Under the pieces are notes generated by a model. That model ran no database searches, was not told where the DNA came from, and was given only the letters and a program-made list of their open reading frames with translations. This document shows positions 1 through 9,878 of a stretch of 9,878 nucleotides of DNA, one piece after another. The translations under genes were made by a program, and so were the position numbers. Origin of the DNA: a virus (taxonomy: Duplodnaviria; Heunggongvirae; Uroviricota; Caudoviricetes). The stretch is from the IMG/VR virus record IMGVR_UViG_2703718826_000003, positions 1-9,878 of that record, one strand, 5' to 3'. Position 1 is the stretch's first letter. Every line of letters begins with the position of its first letter.

Positions 1-1
1 G

Positions 2-265
2 GAACTGGCCAGACATCTAGAATTTACTGTCAGCACCGGCGTTAAAGTTTACTTCTGCGATCCTCAGAGTCCTTGGCAGCGGGGAACAAATGAGAACACA
101 AATGGGCTAATTCGGCAGTACTTTCCTAAAAAGACATGTCTTGCCCAATATACTCAACATGAACTAGATCTGGTTGCTGCTCAGCTAAACAACAGACCGA
201 GAAAGACACTGAAGTTCAAAACACCGAAAGAGATAATTGAAAGGGGTGTTGCATTGACAGATTGA
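2..265 (+). CDS. IS30-family transposase, C-terminal fragment (5' end outside window)
   Basis: Frame 2 is open from window start to TGA at 263-265; translation ELARHLEFTVSTGVKVYFCDPQSPWQRGTNENTNGLIRQYFPKK...ERGVALTD matches my recollection of the IS30 transposase C-terminus including the catalytic-region NENTNGL motif. Confidence 0.85.
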   Translation, partial: ELARHLEFTVSTGVKVYFCDPQSPWQRGTNENTNGLIRQYFPKKTCLAQYTQHELDLVAAQLNNRPRKTLKFKTPKEIIERGVALTD

Positions 266-272
266 ATCTACA
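247..272. repeat. IS30 right terminal inverted repeat (26 bp)
   Basis: TGTTGCATTGACAGATTGAATCTACA, resembling the IS30 terminal repeat from memory; directly abuts unrelated phage DNA. Confidence 0.75.
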
Positions 273-299: not shown

Positions 300-340
300 A
301 AAGCCATCAATATTTCTATCGATGGCTTTATCTTTTTATT
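300..340. terminator. Hairpin plus T-tract, putative intrinsic terminator (clearest on + strand, possibly bidirectional)
   Basis: Perfect 9-bp stem AAAGCCATC(300-308)/GATGGCTTT(321-329) with 12-nt loop, followed on the + strand by ATCTTTTTATT; sits between the IS30 end and the stop of the minus-strand tail fibre assembly gene. The U-tract on the minus-strand transcript is weaker. Confidence 0.45.
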
Positions 341-914
341 GCGGGGCGACTGGCCACTCAACATCCGCTGCTACTGCTGTATCAACACGATTCAACAATA
401 CCCGATATGTCTTCCATGCAGTCAGTAACGATGCCTCTTCCTCCGTCGCAATATCCAAATCTACGGCATCCTGAAGTGGCGCAATATGCTCACTGGCCAT
501 CTGCATCAGGCTGTTTTTTGTTTCTTCCGCCTTCCGGATCCGGAACAGTTTTTCTGCTTCTGCATCTTTCACCCAGGCTGTGCCGTTCCACTTCTGAAAC
601 TCCCCTTCCGGGGATAACCAGGTGACATTTTCCGGTAATGGGCCAAGTTCAGAAATAAATAACGCGTCGCCGGAAGCCACGTCATAGACGGTTTTTCCCC
701 GATGGTCTTCAACGAGATTCCACGATGCCTCATCACTGTTGAAAACGGCCACGAAGCCAGCCGGAATATCTGGCGGGGCAATATCGGTACTGTTTGCAGG
801 CAGACCTGTATGAGGTGGAATGTATGCATCACCTTCACCAATAAACTCATTGGTTCCAGCCAGTAGATTATAAATTTTTATGGTCCGTGATTGTTCACTC
901 ATTCTGAATGTCAT
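336..914 (-). CDS. tfa: Tail fibre assembly protein (Tfa / Mu-P1 U-type chaperone)
   Basis: 192-aa ORF; N-terminus [48 protein letters not shown] is the typical enterobacterial tail fibre assembly signature as I recall it. Start ATG overlaps the upstream tail-fibre stop (TAATG, minus strand 916-912), indicating translational coupling. Confidence 0.9.
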
Positions 915-2530
915 TATGCAAGCCTCACAATATAGTTAAATGCGATGTTTTTTACGGTGTTTTCTTCGTTACCCGTAGCGTTAACGGTGATGGTGTGTCC
1001 GTGGGGACCAATAATGACAGAATGGGCATGAGCACCAATGCCGATAGTGTGGTTATGGGCACCGATATATACATTGTGAGCATGCCCTCCTGCGCTCGAC
1101 GTGGTACCAGTACCTAACGCAGCGTTATAACCGGCTGATACACCATTCCCCGCGCCAGTGTGACCAACAGGTATATTGTGTGAATGAGCTCCTGCGCTAT
1201 TTGTGGTTTTTGTGCCGTAATCAAATGAACTGGTCGTTTTAGTACCGTAATCAAACGACGATGTGGTTTTCGTCCCCAAATCCGTACTGGATGCACTGGC
1301 GCTGTGGGTGTGCGATTTAATGCCGTCCTGTTCCTGAGACAATACTGCACGACCACTGGCGGGCTTGCCCTTAATCGTCCAGCTACGCATATCAGGGATC
1401 ACACCTGACGGATAAGCGGCTGCAAGTTTCGGGTATGCAGATTTGTCAAAAGTCTGCCCCTGCATCAGGGCATAACCAGACGGAACGGTATCTGATGGCC
1501 AAGGGATCGGTGCGCCAACCGGATAAAGTTCATGCGGCGAAATATACAGCGAATAAACAGAACCGTCCGTTAATCCTTCCGGCTTATTAGCAGAATATGC
1601 TGGTGAAGTATGAATCGTTACGCTGGCATTACTGGTATAATCCCATTGAATATTTACACCAGTCGCATAATTTCCAATAGCAACGTAAATATCGTAAGTG
1701 TCACCAGAAGTATTGACCCACGCAAAATTTGTAAACCCTGCCGATGTGCGCTGCCATAAAGCTCCAGTAATCCCCTTCGGATTACCGTTACCTGCACGCA
1801 AAACAAGTTCAGATATACCTGCCTGTTGAGGTGACCCCACGTTAAATCCCGCGCCACCAATCAACGTAATTGAAACAACAGAACTTGCCTGCGGCATGGT
1901 TACAGTTGCCAGCTTGAACCATCCTGCACCACCACTAAAAGACATTGTTGTGGAGTTGATTGTGCCTATAGACCGTGGGTTAAGTTCAATATCTTTAGAA
2001 CCATCAAACGAGACGCCATTGATAGCACATGCTGTCTGCAACTTGGTCGCTGTAGCCGCATTACCAGAGGTGTCCTGATTCCCTTTGGCATTGACGCCGG
2101 GAATTGAATCTTTTGACGTATAGACCTGCGCCCATTCAGACCAGTTGGCAGAATCAGTATCCCGCCGCGAACGGATATGTACGGGCGCATGGGCACCGCT
2201 CGTGCCACTCCAGCCAATGAATAACTCACCTTCGCCAGCAGCGGTGGCACCTTTAAGGTGAAGCACATTGCCATAGGGGGAAGGGTAGCCATTGTTGTAT
2301 GCCTCATACAGCTGAATCCCGGATGTTCCCTGTGCATTCGCCTCCAGGGCCGTTACGCGACCGCGAGATACCAGAGTATTGATATTAATGTCAGCCGAAC
2401 CATCGAACCTGACGCCATTAATGTTTCTGGCTGTTTTTAATTTCGTCGCGGTGTCGGCGTTCCCCGCCAGCGCCCCGGTGATCCCACCGTTGAAAGTCTG
2501 GCGTGCACTCCATGTGTTAGCCGTGCTCAA
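914..2530 (-). CDS. Tail fibre protein, variable C-terminal (receptor-binding) cassette, Sv/Sv'-like; no canonical start, frame open upstream to 2608 through the crossover site
   Basis: 538-aa ORF with two tail-fibre repeat units (GNADTATKL...[15 protein letters not shown] and [29 protein letters not shown]), a His-x-His-rich C-terminus, and a downstream coupled chaperone gene. First conventional start is TTG at 2530; in-frame translation continues upstream across the cix-like site with no stop until TAA at 2609-2611, consistent with a cassette fused to a constant 5' part by inversion. Confidence 0.85.
1202..1276 (-). repeat. In-frame 30-bp tandem coding repeat (2.5 copies) in the tail fibre gene
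   Basis: Encodes [25 protein letters not shown]. Units 1247-1276 and 1217-1246 are identical at protein level but differ at roughly 11 of 30 nucleotides, almost all synonymous. Confidence 0.7.
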
Positions 2531-2560
2531 CAGGGGGATCTTTTCACCGCTTGTGCCAAG

Positions 2561-2586
2561 TTCTCTTAAACCAAGGTTTAGGATTG
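2561..2586. other. cix/gix-type crossover site for the adjacent serine invertase
   Basis: TTCTCTTAAACC-AA-GGTTTAGGATTG: 26-bp imperfect dyad (9 of 12 half-site positions symmetric) around a central AA, with the AAACC..GGTTT core shared by hix/gix/cix/pix sites. It overlaps the invertase stop codon (2578-2580) and the tail fibre frame reads through it. Confidence 0.8.
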
Positions 2587-3138
2587 AAATGATGACGCCG
2601 GAAACTTCTTATAAAGCGTGGAAACAGCCACATCATAGATGATTGCAACCTGCTTACGGGGGATGCCCTTCTCGAGCAATCGCCGCATTTGCTGCCATGT
2701 TTCTTCTTGGTATTTAGGCCGACGCCCACCTATACGACCTTCTGCGCGAGCTGCATCAAGTCCAGCGCGTGTACGTTCAACGATAAGCTCACGTTCCATT
2801 TCTGCCAGCGCCCCCATTACGTGAAAGAAAAAGCGCCCCATTGGTGTACTGGTGTCGATGGAGTCAGTGAGACTCCGGAAGTTAATGCCTCTGTCACGCA
2901 GCTCTTCCACCAGCACAACTAAGTGACGCATGCTGCGCCCAAGACGATCTAACTTCCATACGACTAGGGTGTCACCTCTGGAAAGCATACGGAGAACCTT
3001 TTTTAACCCAGGGCGTTCAGCCTTTTTGCCGCTCGCCTTGTCCTCAAAAATTAGCTTACATCCTGCGCTTTCAAGGGCATTTCGTTGTAAAGCAGTGTTT
3101 TGTTCATTTGTTGATACGCGTACATAGCCAATTAGCAT
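2578..3138 (-). CDS. cin: Serine DNA invertase, Cin/Gin/Pin/Hin family (186 aa)
   Basis: N-terminus [22 protein letters not shown] with catalytic Ser in the RVSTNEQ motif, conserved [15 protein letters not shown] and GRIGGRRPK segments, and a C-terminal helix-turn-helix-like [13 protein letters not shown]. Length 186 aa, same as P1 Cin as I recall. Gene ends within the crossover site. Confidence 0.93.
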
Positions 3139-3265
3139 ATTTTCTGCTCACCATAGTTATTCATAGCAAGCTGCGGATTTTAATTAACAGAAACCAGTGT
3201 GTGTGGAAATCACAAAGTGCATACCGTGCCCCAATGATGTTTTATTGAAAAGCGGGGTTACTTTA
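3139..3265. promoter_or_regulatory. Divergent intergenic control region between the invertase gene and the plus-strand operon (promoters not resolved)
   Basis: 127-bp AT-rich spacer between divergent starts. One weak sigma70-like candidate for the invertase on the minus strand: -35 TTAATT (complement of 3182-3187), 16-bp spacer, -10 TATGAA (complement of 3160-3165). No confident plus-strand promoter identified by eye. Confidence 0.25.
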
Positions 3266-3547
3266 ATGTTTGATTTAACCATATTTTTTATAACCATCCT
3301 TGGAGGCGTGCATTCGTTTCTGAATGGGGTTCGTGAAAAACGTTACGAAGCGTCATGCAGGCAATTGATGGCCGAGTGTATTGCTGCCGTACTTGCAGGC
3401 TTTATAGGCATGTATTTCGCGGAATATAAGGGTATGGATGAAAGTCTTCAGAATTGCGTGACTATTATTTGCAGCATCAATAACAGGCTCATTCTTGAAA
3501 AGTTACAAAGGATTATCGATTCGTACCTCAGTAGCAATGCCTCTTAA
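3266..3547 (+). CDS. Small holin-like membrane protein (two predicted transmembrane helices); possibly LydC-like
   Basis: ORF track gives 3197-3547 from a GTG with no ribosome-binding site. ATG at 3266 is preceded by GGGG 8 nt upstream and gives a 93-aa protein with two hydrophobic segments (LTIFFITILGGVHSFL, IAAVLAGFIGMYFAEY). Start and function uncertain. Confidence 0.5.
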   Translation: MFDLTIFFITILGGVHSFLNGVREKRYEASCRQLMAECIAAVLAGFIGMYFAEYKGMDESLQNCVTIICSINNRLILEKLQRIIDSYLSSNAS

Positions 3548-3587
3548 GCAACAAATGACCGGTTGAGAAGTTACTTTGCATACCATT

Positions 3588-3609
3588 ACCTCCTGACAAC
3601 GTAGGAGGG
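3588..3609 (+). promoter_or_regulatory. Hairpin pairing the Shine-Dalgarno sequence of the downstream holin gene with an upstream anti-SD
   Basis: CCTCCT (3589-3594) and AGGAGG (3603-3608) form a 6-bp stem with an 8-nt loop; AGGAGG is the ribosome-binding site 6 nt upstream of the GTG start at 3615. Confidence 0.4.
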
Positions 3610-3614
3610 AACTT

Positions 3615-3944
3615 GTGCTTGACACACAGGAATTAGCTCCAGTTGCTATTGCGCTCCTGCTTTCAGTAATTGGTGGGATAGGCACGTTCCTGATGGATGT
3701 CCGAGACGGTCGCCAGTCTGGCAATTTGTTGGGATTGGTTACGGAGATCTTTGTTGCAGTGACAGCTGGCGCGGTGGCGTACCTATTGGGGCAACACGAG
3801 GGCTGGGAGTTATCAATTACGTACTTAATGGTAACGATAGCCAGCAATAACGGTCATGAGGTGATTTCAGGGATGAAACGAGTGAATATCGATAGCATTC
3901 TGAATGTTCTTACAAGTTTGGTGAAAAAGGGAGGCGGGAAATGA
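3615..3944 (+). CDS. lydA: Holin (LydA-like), 109 aa
   Basis: GTG start with strong AGGAGG ribosome-binding site; hydrophobic segments LAPVAIALLLSVIGGIGTFL and LLGLVTEIFVAVTAGAVAYLL, charged C-terminal tail KKGGGK; size and position match P1 lydA as I recall it. Stop overlaps the next start (ATGA). Confidence 0.7.
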   Translation: MLDTQELAPVAIALLLSVIGGIGTFLMDVRDGRQSGNLLGLVTEIFVAVTAGAVAYLLGQHEGWELSITYLMVTIASNNGHEVISGMKRVNIDSILNVLTSLVKKGGGK

Positions 3945-4384
3945 TTGGCTGGGGTGTATGCGTTCTTGCGTTAGCCTTAGCCGATCGCTATTTGCTAAAA
4001 CGCAAGGACATCACGCATTTAGAACTTGGTGATGTGGAAATTAAACCGGGTTTCATCCGGGTGCCGTTCAAATACCGGTCTAAATTCCCGTTTTTGCGCG
4101 GCGCAACAGTCAGATATTGGATCCGCGATGTTCAGAAGCCGACGACAGTGATTGAAGGCGAACAACGTTGTTTGACGTCGGCTGAACAGGGCGAAAACAG
4201 TGAATGGTTGTACATACCCACTGAATATATGGGTAAAGGAGAGCGACTGTGGCATTTCAACGTCATGGTTACGCATGGCGACTCGTTCATTAACCCGTTG
4301 TATCGGATTTTCCCTGTTACTCAGCAAATCCGCAGAAGTTACGTAATAAATCTCGCACAGGATGTGTCAGATGACGAAAAATAA
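3941..4384 (+). CDS. lydB: LydB-like protein (putative antiholin / lysis regulator), 147 aa, N-terminal membrane anchor
   Basis: ATG overlaps the holin stop (ATGA at 3941-3944) with an AGGGAGG ribosome-binding site inside the 3' end of the holin gene; N-terminal hydrophobic stretch MIGWGVCVLALALA then a soluble domain. Assignment rests on size and order relative to P1. Confidence 0.55.
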   Translation: MIGWGVCVLALALADRYLLKRKDITHLELGDVEIKPGFIRVPFKYRSKFPFLRGATVRYWIRDVQKPTTVIEGEQRCLTSAEQGENSEWLYIPTEYMGKGERLWHFNVMVTHGDSFINPLYRIFPVTQQIRRSYVINLAQDVSDDEK

Positions 4385-4973
4385 GTATGCAACGGTCGAT
4401 TTTGACCAGGTTAATGAAAAGGGGCTGAAATCCCTTATCGCGGCGATCAATAAAACCGGGGTTACGGTAATTGAGGTTGACTCCAGCAACCGCGCAACAA
4501 CGAAAGATGGCGTTAAAGTTAAAACCGCAAAGCTGGTTCTTAACGACGGACAAATCCTTGCCATACAGGTAAACGATACTGGCGATATATCGTCTGTGAA
4601 ACTGAATGGAAAAGCTATTCCTAACGCTCAGTCGCCGGATATCAAGACGCTTGGTACCGTCATGGGACAGGCGGCCCGCAAAAACTCCGCAAAATTCCAG
4701 AAATCACTGATCGCCAAAGCGAAGCGTGTAGCCAATCCGGTAGACAAGAAACCGGCAGTTAAATCCAACTTTCAGCGCCTGCAAGAAGCAAAACAGCGGA
4801 ATGCTCAGGTGGTTGCCGCTTATAAGTCCGCGCAGAATTCGGTGTCTTTCAATCAACAGCAGATCACTGATTTGCGGGCGAAGCTGGATAAGGAGACGGG
4901 CCGACTCAATAACGAAAAGGCACGGAATGGCGAACTCAAACGTCGTCTTAAGCAACTGAAAGCAGGAAATTAA
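4371..4973 (+). CDS. Hdf/DarA-family protein (short paralogue), about 200 aa, C-terminal coiled coil
   Basis: ATG at 4371 has AGGA 8 nt upstream (the ORF-track start at 4362 has none). Contains the KNSAKFQ motif followed by a predicted coiled coil; the same motif and architecture recur in the next protein. Confidence 0.6.
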   Translation: MTKNKYATVDFDQVNEKGLKSLIAAINKTGVTVIEVDSSNRATTKDGVKVKTAKLVLNDGQILAIQVNDTGDISSVKLNGKAIPNAQSPDIKTLGTVMGQAARKNSAKFQKSLIAKAKRVANPVDKKPAVKSNFQRLQEAKQRNAQVVAAYKSAQNSVSFNQQQITDLRAKLDKETGRLNNEKARNGELKRRLKQLKAGN

Positions 4974-4974
4974 C

Positions 4975-6006
4975 ATGGAACAGTTCAATATCAATAAAGG
5001 GGTGACGATCAAGCCTGGGCTTGACGTGCTTCCCCCGCCAGTGACTGATGATGAATATCGCGCATTAATGGCCGGTGAGGACCGCTATCTGATGACGGAA
5101 TCCAACACCCTGGAGGAAATCGAGGCTACGTTCTTCTATGACACGCCGATCCACTGGTGTGCTACGGATTTACTGGAGGCGATTAGTTCTACTCGTTTGC
5201 AGTTACACCGGACCATGCAGGCATTTGTCCGGGCATTGAACCAGAAGCTGAATGGCACCGGAATCTCTGCGGGGAGTGATAAAACGGGGGATGTGGCCCA
5301 GAGCGGCGCGCGCGCGATCGGCGGTGCTGAAATTGGCCGGGCACGGAACGTTAACGGGCTGCCGGTCCTGCCAGCCATTATTCCGCTCAGTGATGGTCAG
5401 ACTATCAGCATTCTGTTTCATAGCCCGACAGCGGAAAACCGGATCACCAATAGCGATACGCTGGTTGCTTTCCAGTTCTTACTGAATAAAAAAGACGTTA
5501 CTCACACCGTTGCTCCGATGAGTGGACGTGATATGACGCTGGCGCAGGTCACCATGAAACTTGCCAACCTTGCAGAGAAAAACTCGGCAAAATTCCAGCG
5601 TGCGCAGAAGAAGAAAAAAGCCCTGGTTGATGAAATAACCCAACTACAGGCTGACAGTGACCAGAAAGAGGATGCCATGAGCGACCTCGCGGATCAGGTG
5701 GCAGCGGTAGAAGGGCAGAAGGTAGATCTGGAGCAGAAAATTAACGCTGTTGCATCGGAAGCGGATTCTCTTTATGAAGAGAATGAGCGTTTGCAGACGG
5801 AGATTGATCAGCTCAATCGCACTGGTGGGCGCGAAACCATTGCTCCTGCGGGGATGACTGGTGGACACTCTCGCGCGATGACGGATCGCCTTGCAAGTAT
5901 CAAAAATCGTATGCATATGAACGGGGAAGTGACGCTCAGTAATGGTGCATCAATGAAGCAATTCATTGAGGACGGTGAAGGGTATATCCAGTTAACTGGG
6001 ATGTGA
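4975..6006 (+). CDS. DarA-like protein (antirestriction / head-morphogenesis family), 343 aa
   Basis: ATG 4975 with AGGA 7 nt upstream, 1 nt after the previous stop. Contains KNSAKFQ followed by a long heptad-like coiled coil (LVDEITQLQADSDQKEDAMSDLADQVAAVEGQKVDLEQKINAV...). Naming by analogy to the P1 darA operon from memory. Confidence 0.6.
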   Translation: MEQFNINKGVTIKPGLDVLPPPVTDDEYRALMAGEDRYLMTESNTLEEIEATFFYDTPIHWCATDLLEAISSTRLQLHRTMQAFVRALNQKLNGTGISAGSDKTGDVAQSGARAIGGAEIGRARNVNGLPVLPAIIPLSDGQTISILFHSPTAENRITNSDTLVAFQFLLNKKDVTHTVAPMSGRDMTLAQVTMKLANLAEKNSAKFQRAQKKKKALVDEITQLQADSDQKEDAMSDLADQVAAVEGQKVDLEQKINAVASEADSLYEENERLQTEIDQLNRTGGRETIAPAGMTGGHSRAMTDRLASIKNRMHMNGEVTLSNGASMKQFIEDGEGYIQLTGM

Positions 6007-7391
6007 AGACGCTGGATAAACAGGTTGATGTAACTCCCGATGAAGATGCTGTTATGCAGAAAATCAGTGGTGGCGTCTCCATCGCCGGGATTAACGACAT
6101 CATTTCCTGTGACGATTTCTACCGTTTCCAGCAGCGCGGCATGATCAAAATCACTGACTCATACGGCGTTCAGACTACAGAGTCAGGCTATAGCATTGAT
6201 TTTGTTGGTACCTATACGGACCCACTGAAGCATGCGGTTTACCCGGATCGCCGTGACGGCGCGCTGAAGTCGTCAATTGCAAAATGGGTGCTTGGTATGA
6301 TGTCGGAAGGGAATAACCGCCAGATCCGTTCGGCAGAAACATTCCTGGTTGAACTGTTTGGCTCCAATTATGGCGATGTAATCGCGTCATACGGAGATAC
6401 GCTATCCCCTGAAGCAATTCAGGAGAAAATAGCGGATGCGATCGCCAGAATGCCGGAAAAAACAAGCCAGGGGGCTACTCGTAACGGGGATTCTGAACTT
6501 GAAGTCACCAATGCCATTTTCGGTACCAATGAGTTCCGGGCGTCAGATTATGAGATCACCACAGCACAGTTTGGCACCATTGGCATTTACAGCAATAAAG
6601 CCGAGATCAAGCAGGCAATGGACGCAGCAAGCGCGCGCATCGCAGCAGAACGGGAAGCCAATCTGAATCATGCAGTCGCCGCACTGACTCAATCGTGGGT
6701 AACAGCAATCAGGGAGGCCGCCACCACAGGGAAAATCACACCTGCAATTGCGGATGTCGTAAACGACGGCTCTAAATTTATGGATGCCTATCAAATGGAT
6801 GCGGTGCAGTTGCCATCAGCCTATGGCCAACTCAGCTATCGCATGACCTACAACCTGGTATCAATGTTTACTGACCTTGCCATCCTTGGGCTGGTGGACC
6901 TTAACGAGGTTACGCCGGAATTACTCAGCATGCGCAAGAATCATGTTGAGATATTGCAGAGAATTAACACGGTTCTTGCCGGGCGCACCGATGAAGAGAA
7001 ACAGGCCGACGCTGATCGGATAAACCTGGCCCTAGGCAACATCACGGAGGAAGAAATTGCCGCCAGAAACGAGAAACAAGAAGAGTTATCATCAATACAG
7101 GGTGATGCCACCAGCATAGCTCAGTCTCTTGGGCTGAATTATCGCGTATCCACCGCCGACCTGAAGATGATGTACGCACCAAAATTCGCCGCTGGCGAGG
7201 TATTTGGGCTTCAGGAAGCCTCCGGCATGAAAGGGGTTCTTTTCCGTGCGAAAGACGCAATCAAGGCGAAATTCGGCGCTCGCTGGTTGCCAGCGAAGGC
7301 GAAGAACAGCGACTTCCCAGGTAACTGGTGGATTATCGAGACAAAACACAACGTGGCGGACGTTCTGGCCGTCATCCAACAATACGCATAA
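6003..7391 (+). CDS. Hypothetical protein of the Dar-like operon, 462 aa (possibly the C-terminal portion or partner of DarA)
   Basis: Long ORF with GTG start overlapping the upstream stop (ATGTGA at 6001-6006); coding-like composition; no motif I can assign. Confidence 0.6.
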   Translation: MKTLDKQVDVTPDEDAVMQKISGGVSIAGINDIISCDDFYRFQQRGMIKITDSYGVQTTESGYSIDFVGTYTDPLKHAVYPDRRDGALKSSIAKWVLGMMSEGNNRQIRSAETFLVELFGSNYGDVIASYGDTLSPEAIQEKIADAIARMPEKTSQGATRNGDSELEVTNAIFGTNEFRASDYEITTAQFGTIGIYSNKAEIKQAMDAASARIAAEREANLNHAVAALTQSWVTAIREAATTGKITPAIADVVNDGSKFMDAYQMDAVQLPSAYGQLSYRMTYNLVSMFTDLAILGLVDLNEVTPELLSMRKNHVEILQRINTVLAGRTDEEKQADADRINLALGNITEEEIAARNEKQEELSSIQGDATSIAQSLGLNYRVSTADLKMMYAPKFAAGEVFGLQEASGMKGVLFRAKDAIKAKFGARWLPAKAKNSDFPGNWWIIETKHNVADVLAVIQQYA

Positions 7392-7396
7392 CAGGA

Positions 7397-7416
7397 GCGC
7401 CCGGTTCGCCGGGCGT
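7397..7416 (+). other. GC-rich hairpin with UUCG tetraloop in the intergenic spacer
   Basis: GCGCCCGG-TTCG-CCGGGCGT, 7-8 bp GC stem closing a UUCG tetraloop, between the stop at 7389-7391 and the ATG at 7425; not followed by a U-tract. Confidence 0.5.
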
Positions 7417-7424
7417 CGCATAAT

Positions 7425-7865
7425 ATGGCCACATTATCTGATACAATAAAACCGAATAAAACATATCTTGAGGCGGTGCTGCGTACGGCGTTGTTAGGAA
7501 AGACAGAAGACGAATACGTTGATTTCTTCCTGTCAGGGCTACGCGGGCGATTACTGAAAAATCCCCGCCTGTACCGCAGCTATGGTCCATACTGGCCGGA
7601 AATTAAAAAATTATTACTGGAGCGCGGTTATGGTAATTTCGGTCGTCTCGTTGACCGTGACGTTCGCAAAATTTACCGTTATGACCGTCCGGCGCTGACG
7701 CTCATAGCCGCGACGCTCTACAGCCAGGAGCGTTTTGATAATGGTCAGATATACTCAGCCTGGCATTTACTGCCAGTGCCTGAAGAGGTTGACGACCAGG
7801 ACTATGAGTTTGAGTCTTACGATTTGGAAGTTGAAGCCTTGGCACAGGCTGGAGAGAAAACTTGA
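7425..7865 (+). CDS. Hypothetical protein, 146 aa, strongly acidic C-terminal tail
   Basis: ATG start after the hairpin; C-terminus PVPEEVDDQDYEFESYDLEVEALAQAGE; stop overlaps the next start (TTGA). Confidence 0.55.
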   Translation: MATLSDTIKPNKTYLEAVLRTALLGKTEDEYVDFFLSGLRGRLLKNPRLYRSYGPYWPEIKKLLLERGYGNFGRLVDRDVRKIYRYDRPALTLIAATLYSQERFDNGQIYSAWHLLPVPEEVDDQDYEFESYDLEVEALAQAGEKT

Positions 7866-8110
7866 AGAAGCGATACTACACAGTAAAGCATGGGACGCTA
7901 CGAGCATTGCAAGAGTTTGCTGATAAGCATAACGTTGAGGTGCGCAGGGAAGGGGGAAGTAAAGCTCTGCGCATGTACCGTCCTGACGGAAAATGGCGGA
8001 CGGTCGTCGATTTCAAAACTAACAGTGTTCCCCAGGGCGTCCGCGACCGGGCATTCGAAGAATGGGAGCAGATCATCATAGATAACGCATTGCTTCTGAA
8101 CGCTGATTAA
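7862..8110 (+). CDS. Hypothetical small basic protein, 82 aa, translationally coupled to the upstream gene
   Basis: TTG start with GGAGAG 7 nt upstream, overlapping the upstream stop (cTTGA); K/R-rich N-terminal half. Confidence 0.45.
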   Translation: MKKRYYTVKHGTLRALQEFADKHNVEVRREGGSKALRMYRPDGKWRTVVDFKTNSVPQGVRDRAFEEWEQIIIDNALLLNAD

Positions 8111-8120
8111 TAATCATTTA

Positions 8121-8141
8121 AAGCCCATATGATATGGGCTT
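8121..8141. repeat. Perfect 10-bp-arm palindrome (AAGCCCATAT g ATATGGGCTT)
   Basis: Lies 11 bp after the 82-aa gene stop and 22 bp before the AT-rich gene; no U-tract on either side, so an operator, RNA-processing or stability hairpin is as likely as a terminator. Confidence 0.45.
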
Positions 8142-8162
8142 AAACAACAGGATCGATATACA

Positions 8163-9203
8163 GTGTTAGTTAAATATATAGGCGAGAGTTATATGGAAAA
8201 ACCTTGGCCGGGCATGCACATTAGAACATCTTGTCTGGAGGATGGTTTCTTTAGAGCAACGCAACCAAAGTATCTTAATGATCCGTCGAGTGAGTCGCGA
8301 CTTCTTCCATTTTTTAATAAATTTTCACCAGCCGATTACGCATGGGCTAGAAATGAATTTAAGAAAATGCAACGAGATCCATCTTATGTCCCATCTATAC
8401 AAGAGTTAGAGTATTATTTAAAACCTTGCGGGAAACGATACGGAGAGGATTTTCCACACTTGTTAATCAATGAAGGTTTTACCTCAATGGATTCATATGA
8501 TGAATCTAAACTCCAAGAAATAGTAACGTACCTTAACGATTATTTAGTAGAAGCCGTAAGCTGTCATCTTGGTGTATTCTCTCTATCAAAAAGTGATTGC
8601 AATCTACACATGTGGACTCATTATGCATCGATAGGAAAGGGGTTTGCTGTAGTTTTCGATGAAACACACGATTTTTTCAAAATATATAGGCCGTGTGATG
8701 TTAGTTATAATCCAGAAGATAGAGCATCTGTAACCTATTATAAAGGCGCTGTGCGATTTAATGGCTATCCTGCGCCATCGAGGAATATAGATATAAAGAA
8801 TAAAGATAATACATTGCATGGGATCTTAAATCGAGATTCAGTTCGCGAGCTTTTTATTAATAGGCTCCTTTATACAAAAGGTGAAGAGTGGCTTCCTGAA
8901 AATGAAAGTAGAATTATTTTTCCTTTAGCTGATTGCGAGAGAAAGATAGGAAGTATTGTCTCTCCATCGATTGATGATTGCCTATTAAATGAGTATCCTG
9001 ATGTTTTTCATGACTATCATGAAATTAACTTAAAGAAAATTCCTTTTTCTGCATTCAAGCAAATTACCTTAGGGTATAACATGACTGAAAAAGATAAAAA
9101 TATAATTTTAGATAAAGTTAGTTCGAATAAAGAATTGTCTCACGTCAACGTATTATATTCAAAACTTGATATATACGGAAAGGTTGTGGTTAAGCCCATG
9201 TAA
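8163..9203 (+). CDS. AT-rich cargo gene, 346-aa protein with DUF2971-like motifs; function unknown
   Basis: GC content visibly lower than flanking phage genes. Motifs LVKYIG...FRATQPKYLNDPSSE and SCHLGVFSLS...NLHMWTHYASIGKGFAVVFDE resemble the DUF2971 family as I recall it (N-terminal LYKY, NDP-E, MW-HYA). Start is GTG 8163 or ATG 8193. Confidence 0.6.
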   Translation: MLVKYIGESYMEKPWPGMHIRTSCLEDGFFRATQPKYLNDPSSESRLLPFFNKFSPADYAWARNEFKKMQRDPSYVPSIQELEYYLKPCGKRYGEDFPHLLINEGFTSMDSYDESKLQEIVTYLNDYLVEAVSCHLGVFSLSKSDCNLHMWTHYASIGKGFAVVFDETHDFFKIYRPCDVSYNPEDRASVTYYKGAVRFNGYPAPSRNIDIKNKDNTLHGILNRDSVRELFINRLLYTKGEEWLPENESRIIFPLADCERKIGSIVSPSIDDCLLNEYPDVFHDYHEINLKKIPFSAFKQITLGYNMTEKDKNIILDKVSSNKELSHVNVLYSKLDIYGKVVVKPM

Positions 9204-9287
9204 TAATACGCTTATGTCTACACTTCATGATAAATACCTTCCTTAACTTAGGAAGGTTAGTTGTAGGTTTACGCAGAAAGTAACAAA

Positions 9288-9320
9288 TAACCTTCGTAGG
9301 TTATAGAATATTATTCTTTC
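9288..9320 (+). terminator. Weak terminator candidate after the AT-rich gene
   Basis: Stem TAACCT / AGGTTA with TCGT loop (9288-9303) followed by the T-rich TAGAATATTATTCTTTCC; a second small hairpin ACCTTCC/GGAAGGT lies at 9236-9257. Confidence 0.3.
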
Positions 9321-9347
9321 CGGTGAGTATTCCTTGAGGAACTCTAG

Positions 9348-9363
9348 GGAAGGTGCGAATAAG
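9348..9363. repeat. IS5 terminal inverted repeat (16 bp)
   Basis: GGAAGGTGCGAATAAG at the junction with the AT-rich flank. Confidence 0.8.
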
Positions 9364-9493
9364 TGGGGAAATTCTTCTCGGCTGACTCAGTCATTTCATT
9401 TCTTCATGTTTGAGCCGATTTTTTCTCCCGTAAATGCCTTGAATCAGCCTATTTAGACCGTTTCTTCGCCATTTAAGGCGTTATCCCCAGTTT

Positions 9494-9878
<385 letters not shown>

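What the first reader, a model, noticed from the sequence alone, without database searches (positions are those of the whole stretch)
3266..4384. Lysis-control genes embedded at the head of the Dar-like operon
Two small two-helix membrane proteins followed by an N-terminally anchored protein, all tightly coupled, directly precede the Hdf/DarA-like genes, and no endolysin is in the window. This matches my recollection of the P1 lydA/lydB arrangement in the darA operon and implies co-regulation of lysis timing with packaging of head proteins. The first small ORF (3266-3547) may be an extra holin paralogue, LydC-like.
Basis: partly seen in the sequence, partly recalled or inferred. Interest (0 to 1): 0.35.

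Follow-up and report, generated by a model that had tools for sequence, protein, structure and literature searches.

The report
Phage P1 lydC-lydA-lydB lysis genes
These are the already well-studied holin and antiholin genes (lydC, lydA, lydB) of phage P1, here sitting in a decayed, insertion-sequence-bounded P1 remnant that has lost the segment carrying the P1 cell-wall-degrading enzyme, so the finding is correct but ordinary.

Summary
The three ORFs exist exactly as described. They are phage P1 lydC (3266-3547; 84/93 aa identical to P1), lydA (3615-3944; 330/330 nt identical) and lydB (3941-4384; 145/147 aa). They lie between cin and hdf/darA, as in P1. Pfam places them in the LydA holin family (PF16083) and the LydB family (PF16084).

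Three corrections apply:
- lydC is not coupled to lydA. A 67-nt spacer identical to P1 separates them and carries the late promoter LPdar (3568-3586).
- The window is not a live phage arm but a P1 relic bounded by IS30 and IS5.
- darA is cut at codon 341 and joined to the last 462 codons of darB. The missing 16,934 bp of P1 include lyz, lydD, lydE, portal and protease.

Extra points:
- LydB's N-terminal hydrophobic helix is conserved in 34 diverse homologues, with charges indicating an N-out/C-in anchor.
- The order lydA-like, lydB, hdf is kept in 14 distant phage contigs.

Verdict: already known, low interest.

The parts
2578..3138 (-). cin, the DNA invertase of the P1 C-segment; left neighbour, divergent from lydC
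   Evidence: The P1 annotation places cin directly upstream of lydC. The ORF is 186 aa, with serine-recombinase hits.
3111..3138 (+). Sigma-70-like hexamer pair (TTGATA-16-TAGCAT); a possible lydC promoter, weak evidence only
   Evidence: The consensus scan found 1 site, against 2.6 expected by chance. The literature mentions only a 'putative early promoter' before lydC.
3266..3547 (+). lydC, an accessory holin and LydA paralogue
   Evidence: 84/93 aa and 266/282 nt identical to P1 lydC. PF16083 scores 29.0 bits and phrog_1527 holin E 4e-38. Two hydrophobic segments. 28 of the 44 mismatches to P1 across 3139-4400 lie in 3228-3307, covering the ribosome-binding region and the first 14 codons.
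3568..3586 (+). Late promoter LPdar: -22 palindrome AAGTTACTT plus -10 TACCAT
   Evidence: The spacer 3548-3614 is identical to P1, where LPdar is annotated. The pattern is unique in the window, with 0.04 matches expected by chance.
3615..3944 (+). lydA, the principal canonical holin of P1
   Evidence: 330/330 nt identical to P1 lydA. PF16083 scores 30.1 bits and phrog_1527 E 4e-49. Two strong hydrophobic segments and a basic C terminus, KKGGGK.
3941..4384 (+). lydB, antiholin antagonist of LydA
   Evidence: 145/147 aa identical to P1 LydB. PF16084 scores 344 bits. Its ATG overlaps the lydA stop (ATGA). The AlphaFold2 model (pLDDT 92) shows helix 2-19 followed by a beta-sandwich 24-138.
4362..4973 (+). 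hdf, the next gene of the dar operon
   Evidence: 201/203 aa identical to P1 Hdf. Matches DarA_N and phrog_1620.
4975..6006 (+). darA truncated after codon 341 of 639
   Evidence: BLASTP against P1 DarA gives 332/341 identity, ending at residue 341. PGAP annotates the identical copy as an incomplete pseudogene.
5993..5996 (.). Deletion junction: P1 position 28802 joined to 11867 (4-nt overlap); 16,934 bp of P1 absent
   Evidence: blastn of the window against P1 1-30000. The missing genes are read from the P1 annotation. tblastn finds no trace of them in the window.
6003..7391 (+). darB 3' fragment (residues 1794-2255 of 2255), in a different frame from darA'
   Evidence: BLASTP gives 453/462 identity to the P1 DarB C terminus.
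7425..8110 (+). ulx and lxc, the last P1-derived genes on this side
   Evidence: tblastn gives Ulx 98.6% and Lxc 100% identity.
1..272 (+). 3' end of an IS30 element; left boundary of the P1-derived block
   Evidence: The sequence encodes the C-terminal part of a transposase that I recognise from memory as IS30's. It is followed by what I read as the terminal inverted repeat, ending at about 272; no search was run on this stretch. P1-like plasmid homology starts at 273.
9343..9878 (-). IS5-family element; right boundary
   Evidence: 90% match to an IS5-like element (ISKpn26 family) elsewhere in locus L004. The identical NCTC9040 copy is annotated as an IS5 transposase.

Best explanation
The interval holds the phage P1 genes lydC, lydA and lydB in their native arrangement.

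How they work in an intact P1-type phage:
- LydA (109 aa) is the main canonical holin. LydC (93 aa, a paralogue) is an accessory holin made from its own upstream promoter.
- Both accumulate in the inner membrane and, at a set time, permeabilise it. This lets the unlinked SAR-endolysin Lyz destroy the wall.
- LydB (147 aa) is translated by coupling to lydA. It antagonises LydA and so prevents premature lysis.
- lydA and lydB are the first two cistrons of the late transcript started at LPdar, which continues into hdf and darA. The holin/antiholin pair is therefore made together with the internal head (anti-restriction) proteins.

Inferred here: LydB is tethered to the membrane by its N-terminal helix, in N-out/C-in orientation. 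Its beta-sandwich domain would sit on the cytoplasmic face, where it could bind LydA.

In this particular window the genes are intact but belong to a decayed P1 remnant:
- The remnant is bounded by IS30 and IS5.
- It has an internal 16.9-kb deletion that removed lyz, lydD, lydE, portal, protease, ssb, ddrA, ddrB and most of darA and darB.
- Most likely the genes are silent passengers, because LPdar needs the P1 late activator Lpa. They are probably not a working lysis clock.
For: Shown here:
- DNA is 96.5% identical to P1 over 3139-4400, and gene order matches the P1 annotation.
- Per-gene identities: lydA 330/330 nt, LydB 145/147 aa, LydC 84/93 aa. The LPdar spacer is identical.
- Pfam PF16083 and PF16084, plus PHROG holin and 'lysis determining protein' families, match.
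- The hydrophobic segments are as described.
- The LPdar motif is unique in the window.

From the literature (PMC9025707):
- LydA and LydC act as canonical holins and are lethal when cloned.
- LydB delays lysis, and lydB amber phages lyse prematurely.
- lydA and lydB are expressed from the late dar promoter, lydC from a putative early one.
- Lyz is unlinked.

Relic status:
- darA is cut at residue 341 and darB begins at residue 1794.
- The junction maps to P1 28802/11867.
- No Lyz, LydD, LydE, Prt, Pro, Ssb, DdrA or DdrB is found in the window. None is found in 50 kb around the 100%-identical copy in E. coli NCTC9040, nor in 30 kb of plasmid LT883139.
- Insertion sequences lie at both ends.
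- In sister copies IS1 cuts into lydA (match starts at 3649), or the match starts inside lydC (3480). The host replicon therefore does not need these genes.

LydB anchor:
- 34 homologues of 25-45% identity all have an uncharged N-terminal run (median 16 aa) followed by invariant R16 and near-invariant D15.
- They carry on average 3.9 K/R in the 12 residues starting at that D-R pair, and 0.03 K/R before the hydrophobic run.
- AlphaFold2 (pLDDT 92) gives helix 2-19 plus a beta-sandwich.
Against: - No expression or lysis data exist for this element.
- The rest of the source genome is unseen. A complete P1-type prophage supplying Lpa and Lyz in trans cannot be excluded.
- The exact IS30 junction was not found in any complete E. 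coli genome, so the source replicon is unknown.
- lydC has its own promoter region, which differs from P1 just upstream of the start codon. Its expression state is uncertain.
- Bednarek 2022 reports no predicted transmembrane domain in LydB. In the P1 protein the hydrophobic run is only 14 residues, with a 19-residue Kyte-Doolittle mean of 1.62, right at the usual threshold. The anchor is an inference.
- LydA and LydC pass the Pfam gathering score only narrowly.
Confidence: 0.88

Rival explanations
1. The genes are the working holin/antiholin timer of a viable P1-type prophage or plasmid. The endolysin would lie elsewhere on the same element, as in P1.
For: All three ORFs, their overlaps and LPdar are intact and nearly identical to P1. 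In P1 the endolysin is also unlinked.
Against: The P1 segment that carries lyz, lydD, lydE, portal and protease is precisely what is deleted between darA codon 341 and darB codon 1794. The block is bounded by IS30 and IS5. The identical copy in NCTC9040 is a roughly 9.5-kb island in an IS-rich mosaic. None of 80 P1-like viral contigs carries this junction.
Confidence: 0.07
2. The orphaned cassette has been co-opted. It might act as an Lpa-responsive suicide or interference module that fires when a P1-type phage superinfects. Alternatively it might act as a holin/antiholin addiction pair stabilising the host plasmid.
For: The ORFs and promoter are kept intact although the phage is dead. The promoter depends on a phage-supplied activator (established P1 biology). 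A defence-candidate gene (PDC-S31-like, DUF2971) lies 4 kb downstream.
Against: Sister copies are truncated by IS1 within lydA, or start within lydC, which argues against selection. Identity to P1 is so high (lydA 100% nt) that the intact ORFs may simply reflect recent decay. LydB is co-expressed and would blunt any suicide effect.
Confidence: 0.04
3. The ORFs are chance open frames or are mis-assigned, and are not lysis genes at all.
For: The LydA and LydC Pfam scores are only just above threshold.
Against: The sequences are identical or near-identical to experimentally characterised P1 genes (PMC9025707). PF16084 scores 344 bits. The synteny is conserved in 14 distant phage contigs.
Confidence: 0.01

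Closest known systems
Phage P1 lydC-lydA-lydB at the head of the late dar operon (NC_005856 30414-31532; Bednarek et al. 2022, PMC9025707)
   Same: Same genes, order, overlaps, late promoter and neighbours (cin upstream, hdf and darA downstream). LydA is identical, LydB 98.6% and LydC 90% identical.
   Different: A divergent patch at 3228-3307 covers the lydC ribosome-binding region and first 14 codons. The operon is truncated after darA codon 341. Lyz, LydD and LydE are deleted and the flanks are insertion sequences.
P7 / RCS47 / vB_EcoM-Ro157c2YLVW-type Punaviruses
   Same: lydA, lydB and hdf are 99.3-100% identical in DNA from window position about 3555 onward.
   Different: Their DNA matches stop just upstream of LPdar, so the window's P1-type lydC DNA is absent from them. 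In Ro157c2YLVW a U' tail-fibre chaperone gene lies there instead. Across 80 close loci, lydC occurs in at least three allele classes or is missing.
Lambda S105/S107 holin-antiholin
   Same: A small membrane holin is held in check by an antagonist made from the same transcript.
   Different: The lambda antiholin is an N-terminally extended isoform of the holin itself. LydB is an unrelated 147-aa protein with one N-terminal helix and a beta-sandwich domain. The lambda endolysin is adjacent, whereas that of P1 is unlinked.
T4 holin T with antiholins RI (periplasmic) and RIII (cytoplasmic)
   Same: A separate antiholin protein binds or regulates the holin. RI also starts with an N-terminal hydrophobic segment (PMC8385771, title and abstract).
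   Different: There is no sequence or confident fold similarity. The PDB fold search gave only generic beta-sandwiches with TM-score below 0.5. The charge distribution of LydB predicts a cytoplasmic globular domain, unlike the periplasmic RI.

Membership tests
LydA holin family (Pfam PF16083 Phage_holin_3_3; P1 LydA) | Sequence matches the family model above its gathering score | tested here: met
   LydA scores 30.1 bits and LydC 29.0 bits against a cutoff of 28.4. phrog_1527 holin gives E 4e-49 and 4e-38. LydA is 109/109 identical to P1 LydA.
LydA holin family (Pfam PF16083 Phage_holin_3_3; P1 LydA) | Small protein with at least two transmembrane segments and a polar or basic C terminus | tested here: met
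   Each protein has two segments with a 19-residue Kyte-Doolittle mean of at least 1.7. The LydA C terminus is KKGGGK. A conserved short third hydrophobic segment ends in SNNG. Whether the class is I or II is unresolved in the literature.
LydA holin family (Pfam PF16083 Phage_holin_3_3; P1 LydA) | Membrane-permeabilising, lethal activity that supports a cytoplasmic endolysin | not testable with these tools
   This was shown for P1 LydA and LydC by Bednarek 2022. It is inferred here from identity with LydA and 90% identity with LydC.
LydB antiholin family (Pfam PF16084) | Full-length match to the LydB model | tested here: met
   344.1 bits, residues 1-147 of 147. 145/147 identical to P1 LydB.
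LydB antiholin family (Pfam PF16084) | Encoded immediately after, and translationally coupled to, a LydA-type holin gene | tested here: met
   There is an ATGA overlap at 3941-3944. The same adjacency is seen in 14 distant loci.
LydB antiholin family (Pfam PF16084) | Delays LydA-dependent lysis | not testable with these tools
   Known for P1 LydB.
P1 late dar operon (LPdar-lydA-lydB-hdf-darA-ddrA-ddrB) | Lpa-type late promoter (-22 palindrome plus -10) upstream of lydA | tested here: met
   AAGTTACTTTGCATACCAT lies at 3568-3586, identical to the annotated LPdar.
P1 late dar operon (LPdar-lydA-lydB-hdf-darA-ddrA-ddrB) | Complete set of downstream Dar genes (hdf, full darA, ddrA, ddrB) | tested here: not met
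   hdf is intact. darA stops at residue 341 of 639. ddrA and ddrB are absent.
Complete P1 lysis system (Lyz SAR-endolysin, LydD pinholin, LydA/LydC holins, LydB) | Presence of the endolysin lyz and pinholin lydD on the same element | tested here: not met
   tblastn gives no hit in the window or in the 30-50 kb around the identical copies. The P1 interval that holds them (20.0-20.9 kb) lies inside the deleted 11868-28801. The rest of the source genome could not be examined.

The most novel reading that the evidence does not exclude
The relic might be more than debris. It combines an intact Lpa-dependent promoter driving lydA and lydB, hdf and a truncated DarA N-terminal fragment. It sits on a plasmid-derived island next to a PDC-S31-like defence candidate. 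This could act as an interference module that is switched on only when a P1-type phage superinfects and supplies the late activator. The effect would be to mistime lysis or poison head assembly. A second point, more likely true but less novel, is that LydB would be a distinct class of antiholin: an N-out/C-in membrane-tethered beta-sandwich acting at the cytoplasmic face.
Probability: 0.04. Interest if true: 0.55.

Novelty: already known. Interest (0 to 1): 0.1.

Why it matters
As a discovery it matters little. The gene trio and its placement ahead of the Dar genes were described for P1 decades ago and dissected functionally in 2022. Three modest points remain useful.

- **Annotation.** RefSeq labels these genes only 'phage holin family protein' or 'hypothetical protein' in such remnants. 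An automated pipeline might score this island as a live prophage lysis module when its endolysin, portal and protease are gone.
- **LydB topology.** The family-wide N-terminal anchor signature and a confident fold model bear on a contradiction in the literature about whether LydB has a transmembrane domain. Its mechanism is still stated to be unknown.
- **Deep synteny.** The order lydA-like, lydB, hdf (then darA-like in some) is conserved in contigs whose LydB is only 28-41% identical. Coupling of holin control to internal head-protein genes is therefore an old, conserved trait of this phage group rather than a P1 peculiarity.

Tried and rejected
- **RNA and operator searches.** An Rfam scan of the window found only IS009 inside the tail-fibre assembly gene, and nothing in the lyd region. 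A search for the P1 C1 operator consensus found no match with up to 3 mismatches, so there is no evidence that lydC is C1-controlled here. The sigma-70 and terminator scan of 3000-4500 found one weak promoter-like site, no more than chance, and no terminator between lydC and lydA.
- **Family libraries.** NCBIfam gave no hits for LydA, LydB, LydC or Hdf. PADLOC gave no hits for the three Lyd proteins.
- **LydB structure.** The PDB sequence search found nothing. The fold search returned only generic beta-sandwiches (a LEA14-like protein, Asf1, glycosidase accessory domains) with TM-score below 0.5. I do not treat these as homology.
- **Source replicon.** I tried to locate it through the IS30/P1 junction. 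No complete E. coli genome has that junction.
- **Technical failures.** The search for related loci with the 34-sequence alignment failed for lack of a conserved stretch. With the close subset it returned only P1-identical loci. A third alignment of distant members worked.
- **Fusion protein rejected.** I considered that the 343-aa and 462-aa ORFs might form a DarA-DarB fusion protein. They are in different reading frames.

Full report
**Observation**

The ORF list and the sequence show three same-strand ORFs at the stated coordinates.
- 3266-3547 encodes 93 aa with an ATG start.
- 3615-3944 encodes 109 aa, with a GTG start eight bases after GGAGGG.
- 3941-4384 encodes 147 aa. Its ATG overlaps the preceding stop as ATGA.

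The next ORF, 4362-4973, overlaps the third by 23 nt.

Kyte-Doolittle analysis gives the following.
- The 93-aa protein has two clear hydrophobic segments (19-residue means 1.71 and 1.90).
- The 109-aa protein also has two (2.16 and 1.88).
- Each has a short, weaker third segment as well.
- The 147-aa protein has a single hydrophobic run at residues 1-14 (19-residue mean 1.62, 15-residue mean 1.93).

The description is accurate with one exception. The first ORF is not coupled to the second: a 67-nt spacer separates them.

**Identity**

Megablast of 3139-4400 against phage genomes gives full-length matches of 96.4-96.8% to P1 and its close relatives. The annotated features under the match are LydC, LydA, LydB and Hdf.

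The P1 reference annotation gives the order cin(-), lydC, late promoter LPdar, lydA, lydB, hdf, darA, ddrA, ddrB.

Gene-by-gene comparison:

| Gene | Identity to P1 |
|---|---|
| lydA | 330/330 nt |
| LydB | 145/147 aa |
| LydC | 84/93 aa |
| Hdf | 201/203 aa |
| lydC-lydA spacer | identical |

- The LPdar motif (-22 palindrome AAGTTACTT plus -10 TACCAT) lies at 3568-3586. It is unique in the window, with 0.04 matches expected by chance.
- Pfam assigns LydA and LydC to PF16083, the LydA holin family (30.1 and 29.0 bits against a cutoff of 28.4). It assigns LydB to PF16084 (344 bits). PHROGs agree.
- Of the 44 mismatches to P1 in 3139-4400, 28 fall in 3228-3307. That patch covers the lydC ribosome-binding region and its first 14 codons.

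**What is known about function**

Bednarek et al. 2022 (PMC9025707) report the following.
- LydA is the principal canonical holin.
- LydC is an accessory canonical holin, 29% identical to LydA. It is encoded by a monocistronic unit with a putative early promoter, immediately before the dar operon.
- Both are lethal when cloned.
- LydB is an antiholin. lydB amber phages lyse prematurely, and lydB delays lysis in plasmid assays.
- lydA and lydB are expressed from the late dar promoter together with anti-restriction and capsid-morphogenesis genes.
- The SAR-endolysin Lyz and the pinholin LydD sit in an unlinked late operon.

**Surroundings: a relic, not a phage arm**

Homology to all P1-type phages stops at window position 5996.
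- The 343-aa ORF at 4975-6006 equals DarA residues 1-341 of 639.
- The 462-aa ORF at 6003-7391 equals DarB residues 1794-2255 of 2255.
- ulx and lxc follow.

blastn maps the junction to P1 position 28802 joined to 11867, with a 4-nt overlap. 16,934 bp of P1 are therefore missing. According to the P1 annotation, that interval contains the darA 3' part, ddrA, ddrB, hxr, isaB, IS1, isaA, ssb, lyz, lydD, lydE, pro, prt and most of darB. None of these is detectable in the window by tblastn.

The boundaries are as follows.
- The left end (1-272) I read as the end of an IS30 element; this rests on my recognition of the sequence, not on a search.
- An IS5-family element starts at about 9343.
- Between lxc and IS5 lies a low-GC DUF2971 gene, in the place where P1 carries mod and res.

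Related copies elsewhere:
- Window 320-9878 is essentially identical (99.98-100%) to a segment of the E. coli NCTC9040 chromosome record. There it is a roughly 9.5-kb island between IS1 and IS5 in a mosaic of plasmid-derived genes (repA, parAB, mobH).
- Two E. coli plasmids carry the same darA/darB junction but are eroded further. In LT883139 an IS1 cuts lydA (match starts at 3649). In CP010179 the match starts at 3480, inside lydC.
- None of 80 P1-like viral contigs has the junction.
- The exact IS30 junction of the window was not found in any complete E. coli genome, so the source replicon is unknown.

**Consequence for mechanism here**

The genes and LPdar are intact. However, LPdar needs the P1 late activator Lpa (established P1 biology, not tested here). 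The cognate endolysin region has also been deleted.

The most likely state is silent carriage of a recently decayed cassette. The truncated sister copies show that the replicon does not depend on it. A resident or superinfecting P1-type phage could still trans-activate the cassette, and this cannot be excluded from a 9.9-kb window.

**LydB topology**

Bednarek et al. state that LydB has no predicted transmembrane domain. A 2025 paper instead calls it a single-transmembrane-domain antiholin.

An exhaustive HMMER search found only 51 representative clusters. I aligned 34 full-length members of 25-45% identity to the window protein. The results:
- Every member has an uncharged N-terminal hydrophobic run (median 16 residues, range 10-24).
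- 23 of 34 reach a 19-residue Kyte-Doolittle mean of at least 1.6.
- The run is followed by near-invariant D15 and invariant R16.
- On average there are 3.9 K/R in the 12 residues starting at the D-R pair, and 0.03 K/R before the hydrophobic run.

By the positive-inside rule this is an N-out/C-in signal anchor, not a cleavable signal peptide.

AlphaFold2 with this alignment gives a confident model (pLDDT 92, pTM 0.82). It has helix 2-19 followed by a beta-sandwich spanning 24-138. The PDB fold search returns only generic beta-sandwiches, and the PDB sequence search returns nothing.

I infer a membrane-tethered antiholin whose globular domain faces the cytoplasm.

**Holin family features**

I aligned LydA, three LydC allele classes and eight distant homologues. 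The alignment shows:
- two robust hydrophobic segments;
- a conserved R-x-x-R loop between them;
- a conserved acidic residue in the second segment;
- a short third hydrophobic stretch ending in SNNG.

Whether that third stretch spans the membrane (class I) or not (class II) cannot be settled here. The literature is inconsistent on this point.

**Conservation of the arrangement**

In 14 viral contigs whose LydB is 28-41% identical to the query homologue, the order lydA-like holin, lydB, hdf is kept in every case. The genes overlap or abut in nearly all of them.
- A DarA-like gene follows in five of them.
- None has a second LydC-like copy.
- No Lyz homologue was found within the available flanks (up to 5 kb).

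Among 80 close P1-like loci, lydA, lydB and hdf are always present at 97% or higher. lydC is polymorphic:
- at the DNA level there are 33 full, 21 partial and 26 absent matches;
- at the protein level 63 loci have an extra LydC-like ORF, in at least three allele classes (93, 87 and 94 aa), and 17 have none.

The holin/antiholin pair at the head of the Dar genes is therefore an old, conserved feature. lydC is a variable add-on at a mosaic boundary near position 3555.

**Verdict**

The feature is already known (P1 lydC, lydA, lydB). The new information concerns context (a dead, IS-bounded P1 remnant lacking its endolysin) and a clarification of LydB's likely topology. Interest is low.

Noticed in passing
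window 4975-7391 (junction 5993-5996): darA is truncated at codon 341 and joined out of frame to the last 462 codons of darB. This corresponds to a 16,934-bp deletion of P1 (positions 11868-28801) that removes lyz, lydD, lydE, portal, protease, ssb, ddrA and ddrB. The same junction occurs in the E. coli NCTC9040 chromosome and in plasmids LT883139 and CP010179, but in none of 80 IMG/VR P1-like contigs.
   Followed up: yes
window 8163-9203: A low-GC (0.32-0.37) 346-aa DUF2971 protein occupies the position where P1 carries the EcoP1I mod and res genes. It matches the PADLOC phage-defence candidate PDC-S31 (E 5e-16) and phrog_1762. It may be a defence gene in a variable hotspot.
   Followed up: partly
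window 1-272 and 9343-9878: The P1-derived block is bounded by what I read as an IS30 end on the left (recognised by eye, no search run) and an IS5-family element on the right. In NCTC9040 the left boundary is instead an IS1 at window position 320, so different lineages have been trimmed independently.
   Followed up: partly
window 373-571 (-): Rfam IS009 (RF02111) matches at 192.7 bits over its full length, lying inside the tail-fibre assembly gene (336-914, minus strand).
   Followed up: no
window 336-2530 (-): Only part of the invertible C-segment survives: a tail-fibre assembly gene and a 538-aa variable C-terminal tail-fibre fragment without the constant N-terminal part. Positions 352-1523 are 88.5% identical to lambda-type stf/tfa, whereas P1 homology begins at about 1979.
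   Followed up: partly
window 3228-3307: 28 of the 44 differences from P1 in the lyd region are packed into 80 nt covering the lydC Shine-Dalgarno region and TMD1 codons (7 of the 9 amino-acid changes lie in residues 2-10). This is a small recombinational patch. The same N-terminal variant occurs in 5 of 80 IMG/VR loci.
   Followed up: partly
window 3941-4384; homologues P0003-P0051: The LydB family is small (51 clusters at 50% identity in 1.8 billion proteins). It has invariant R16, P67, N118 and P119, and a near-invariant NP[LF]Y[KR]IFP motif near the C terminus. The literature disagrees on whether LydB has a transmembrane domain.
   Followed up: yes
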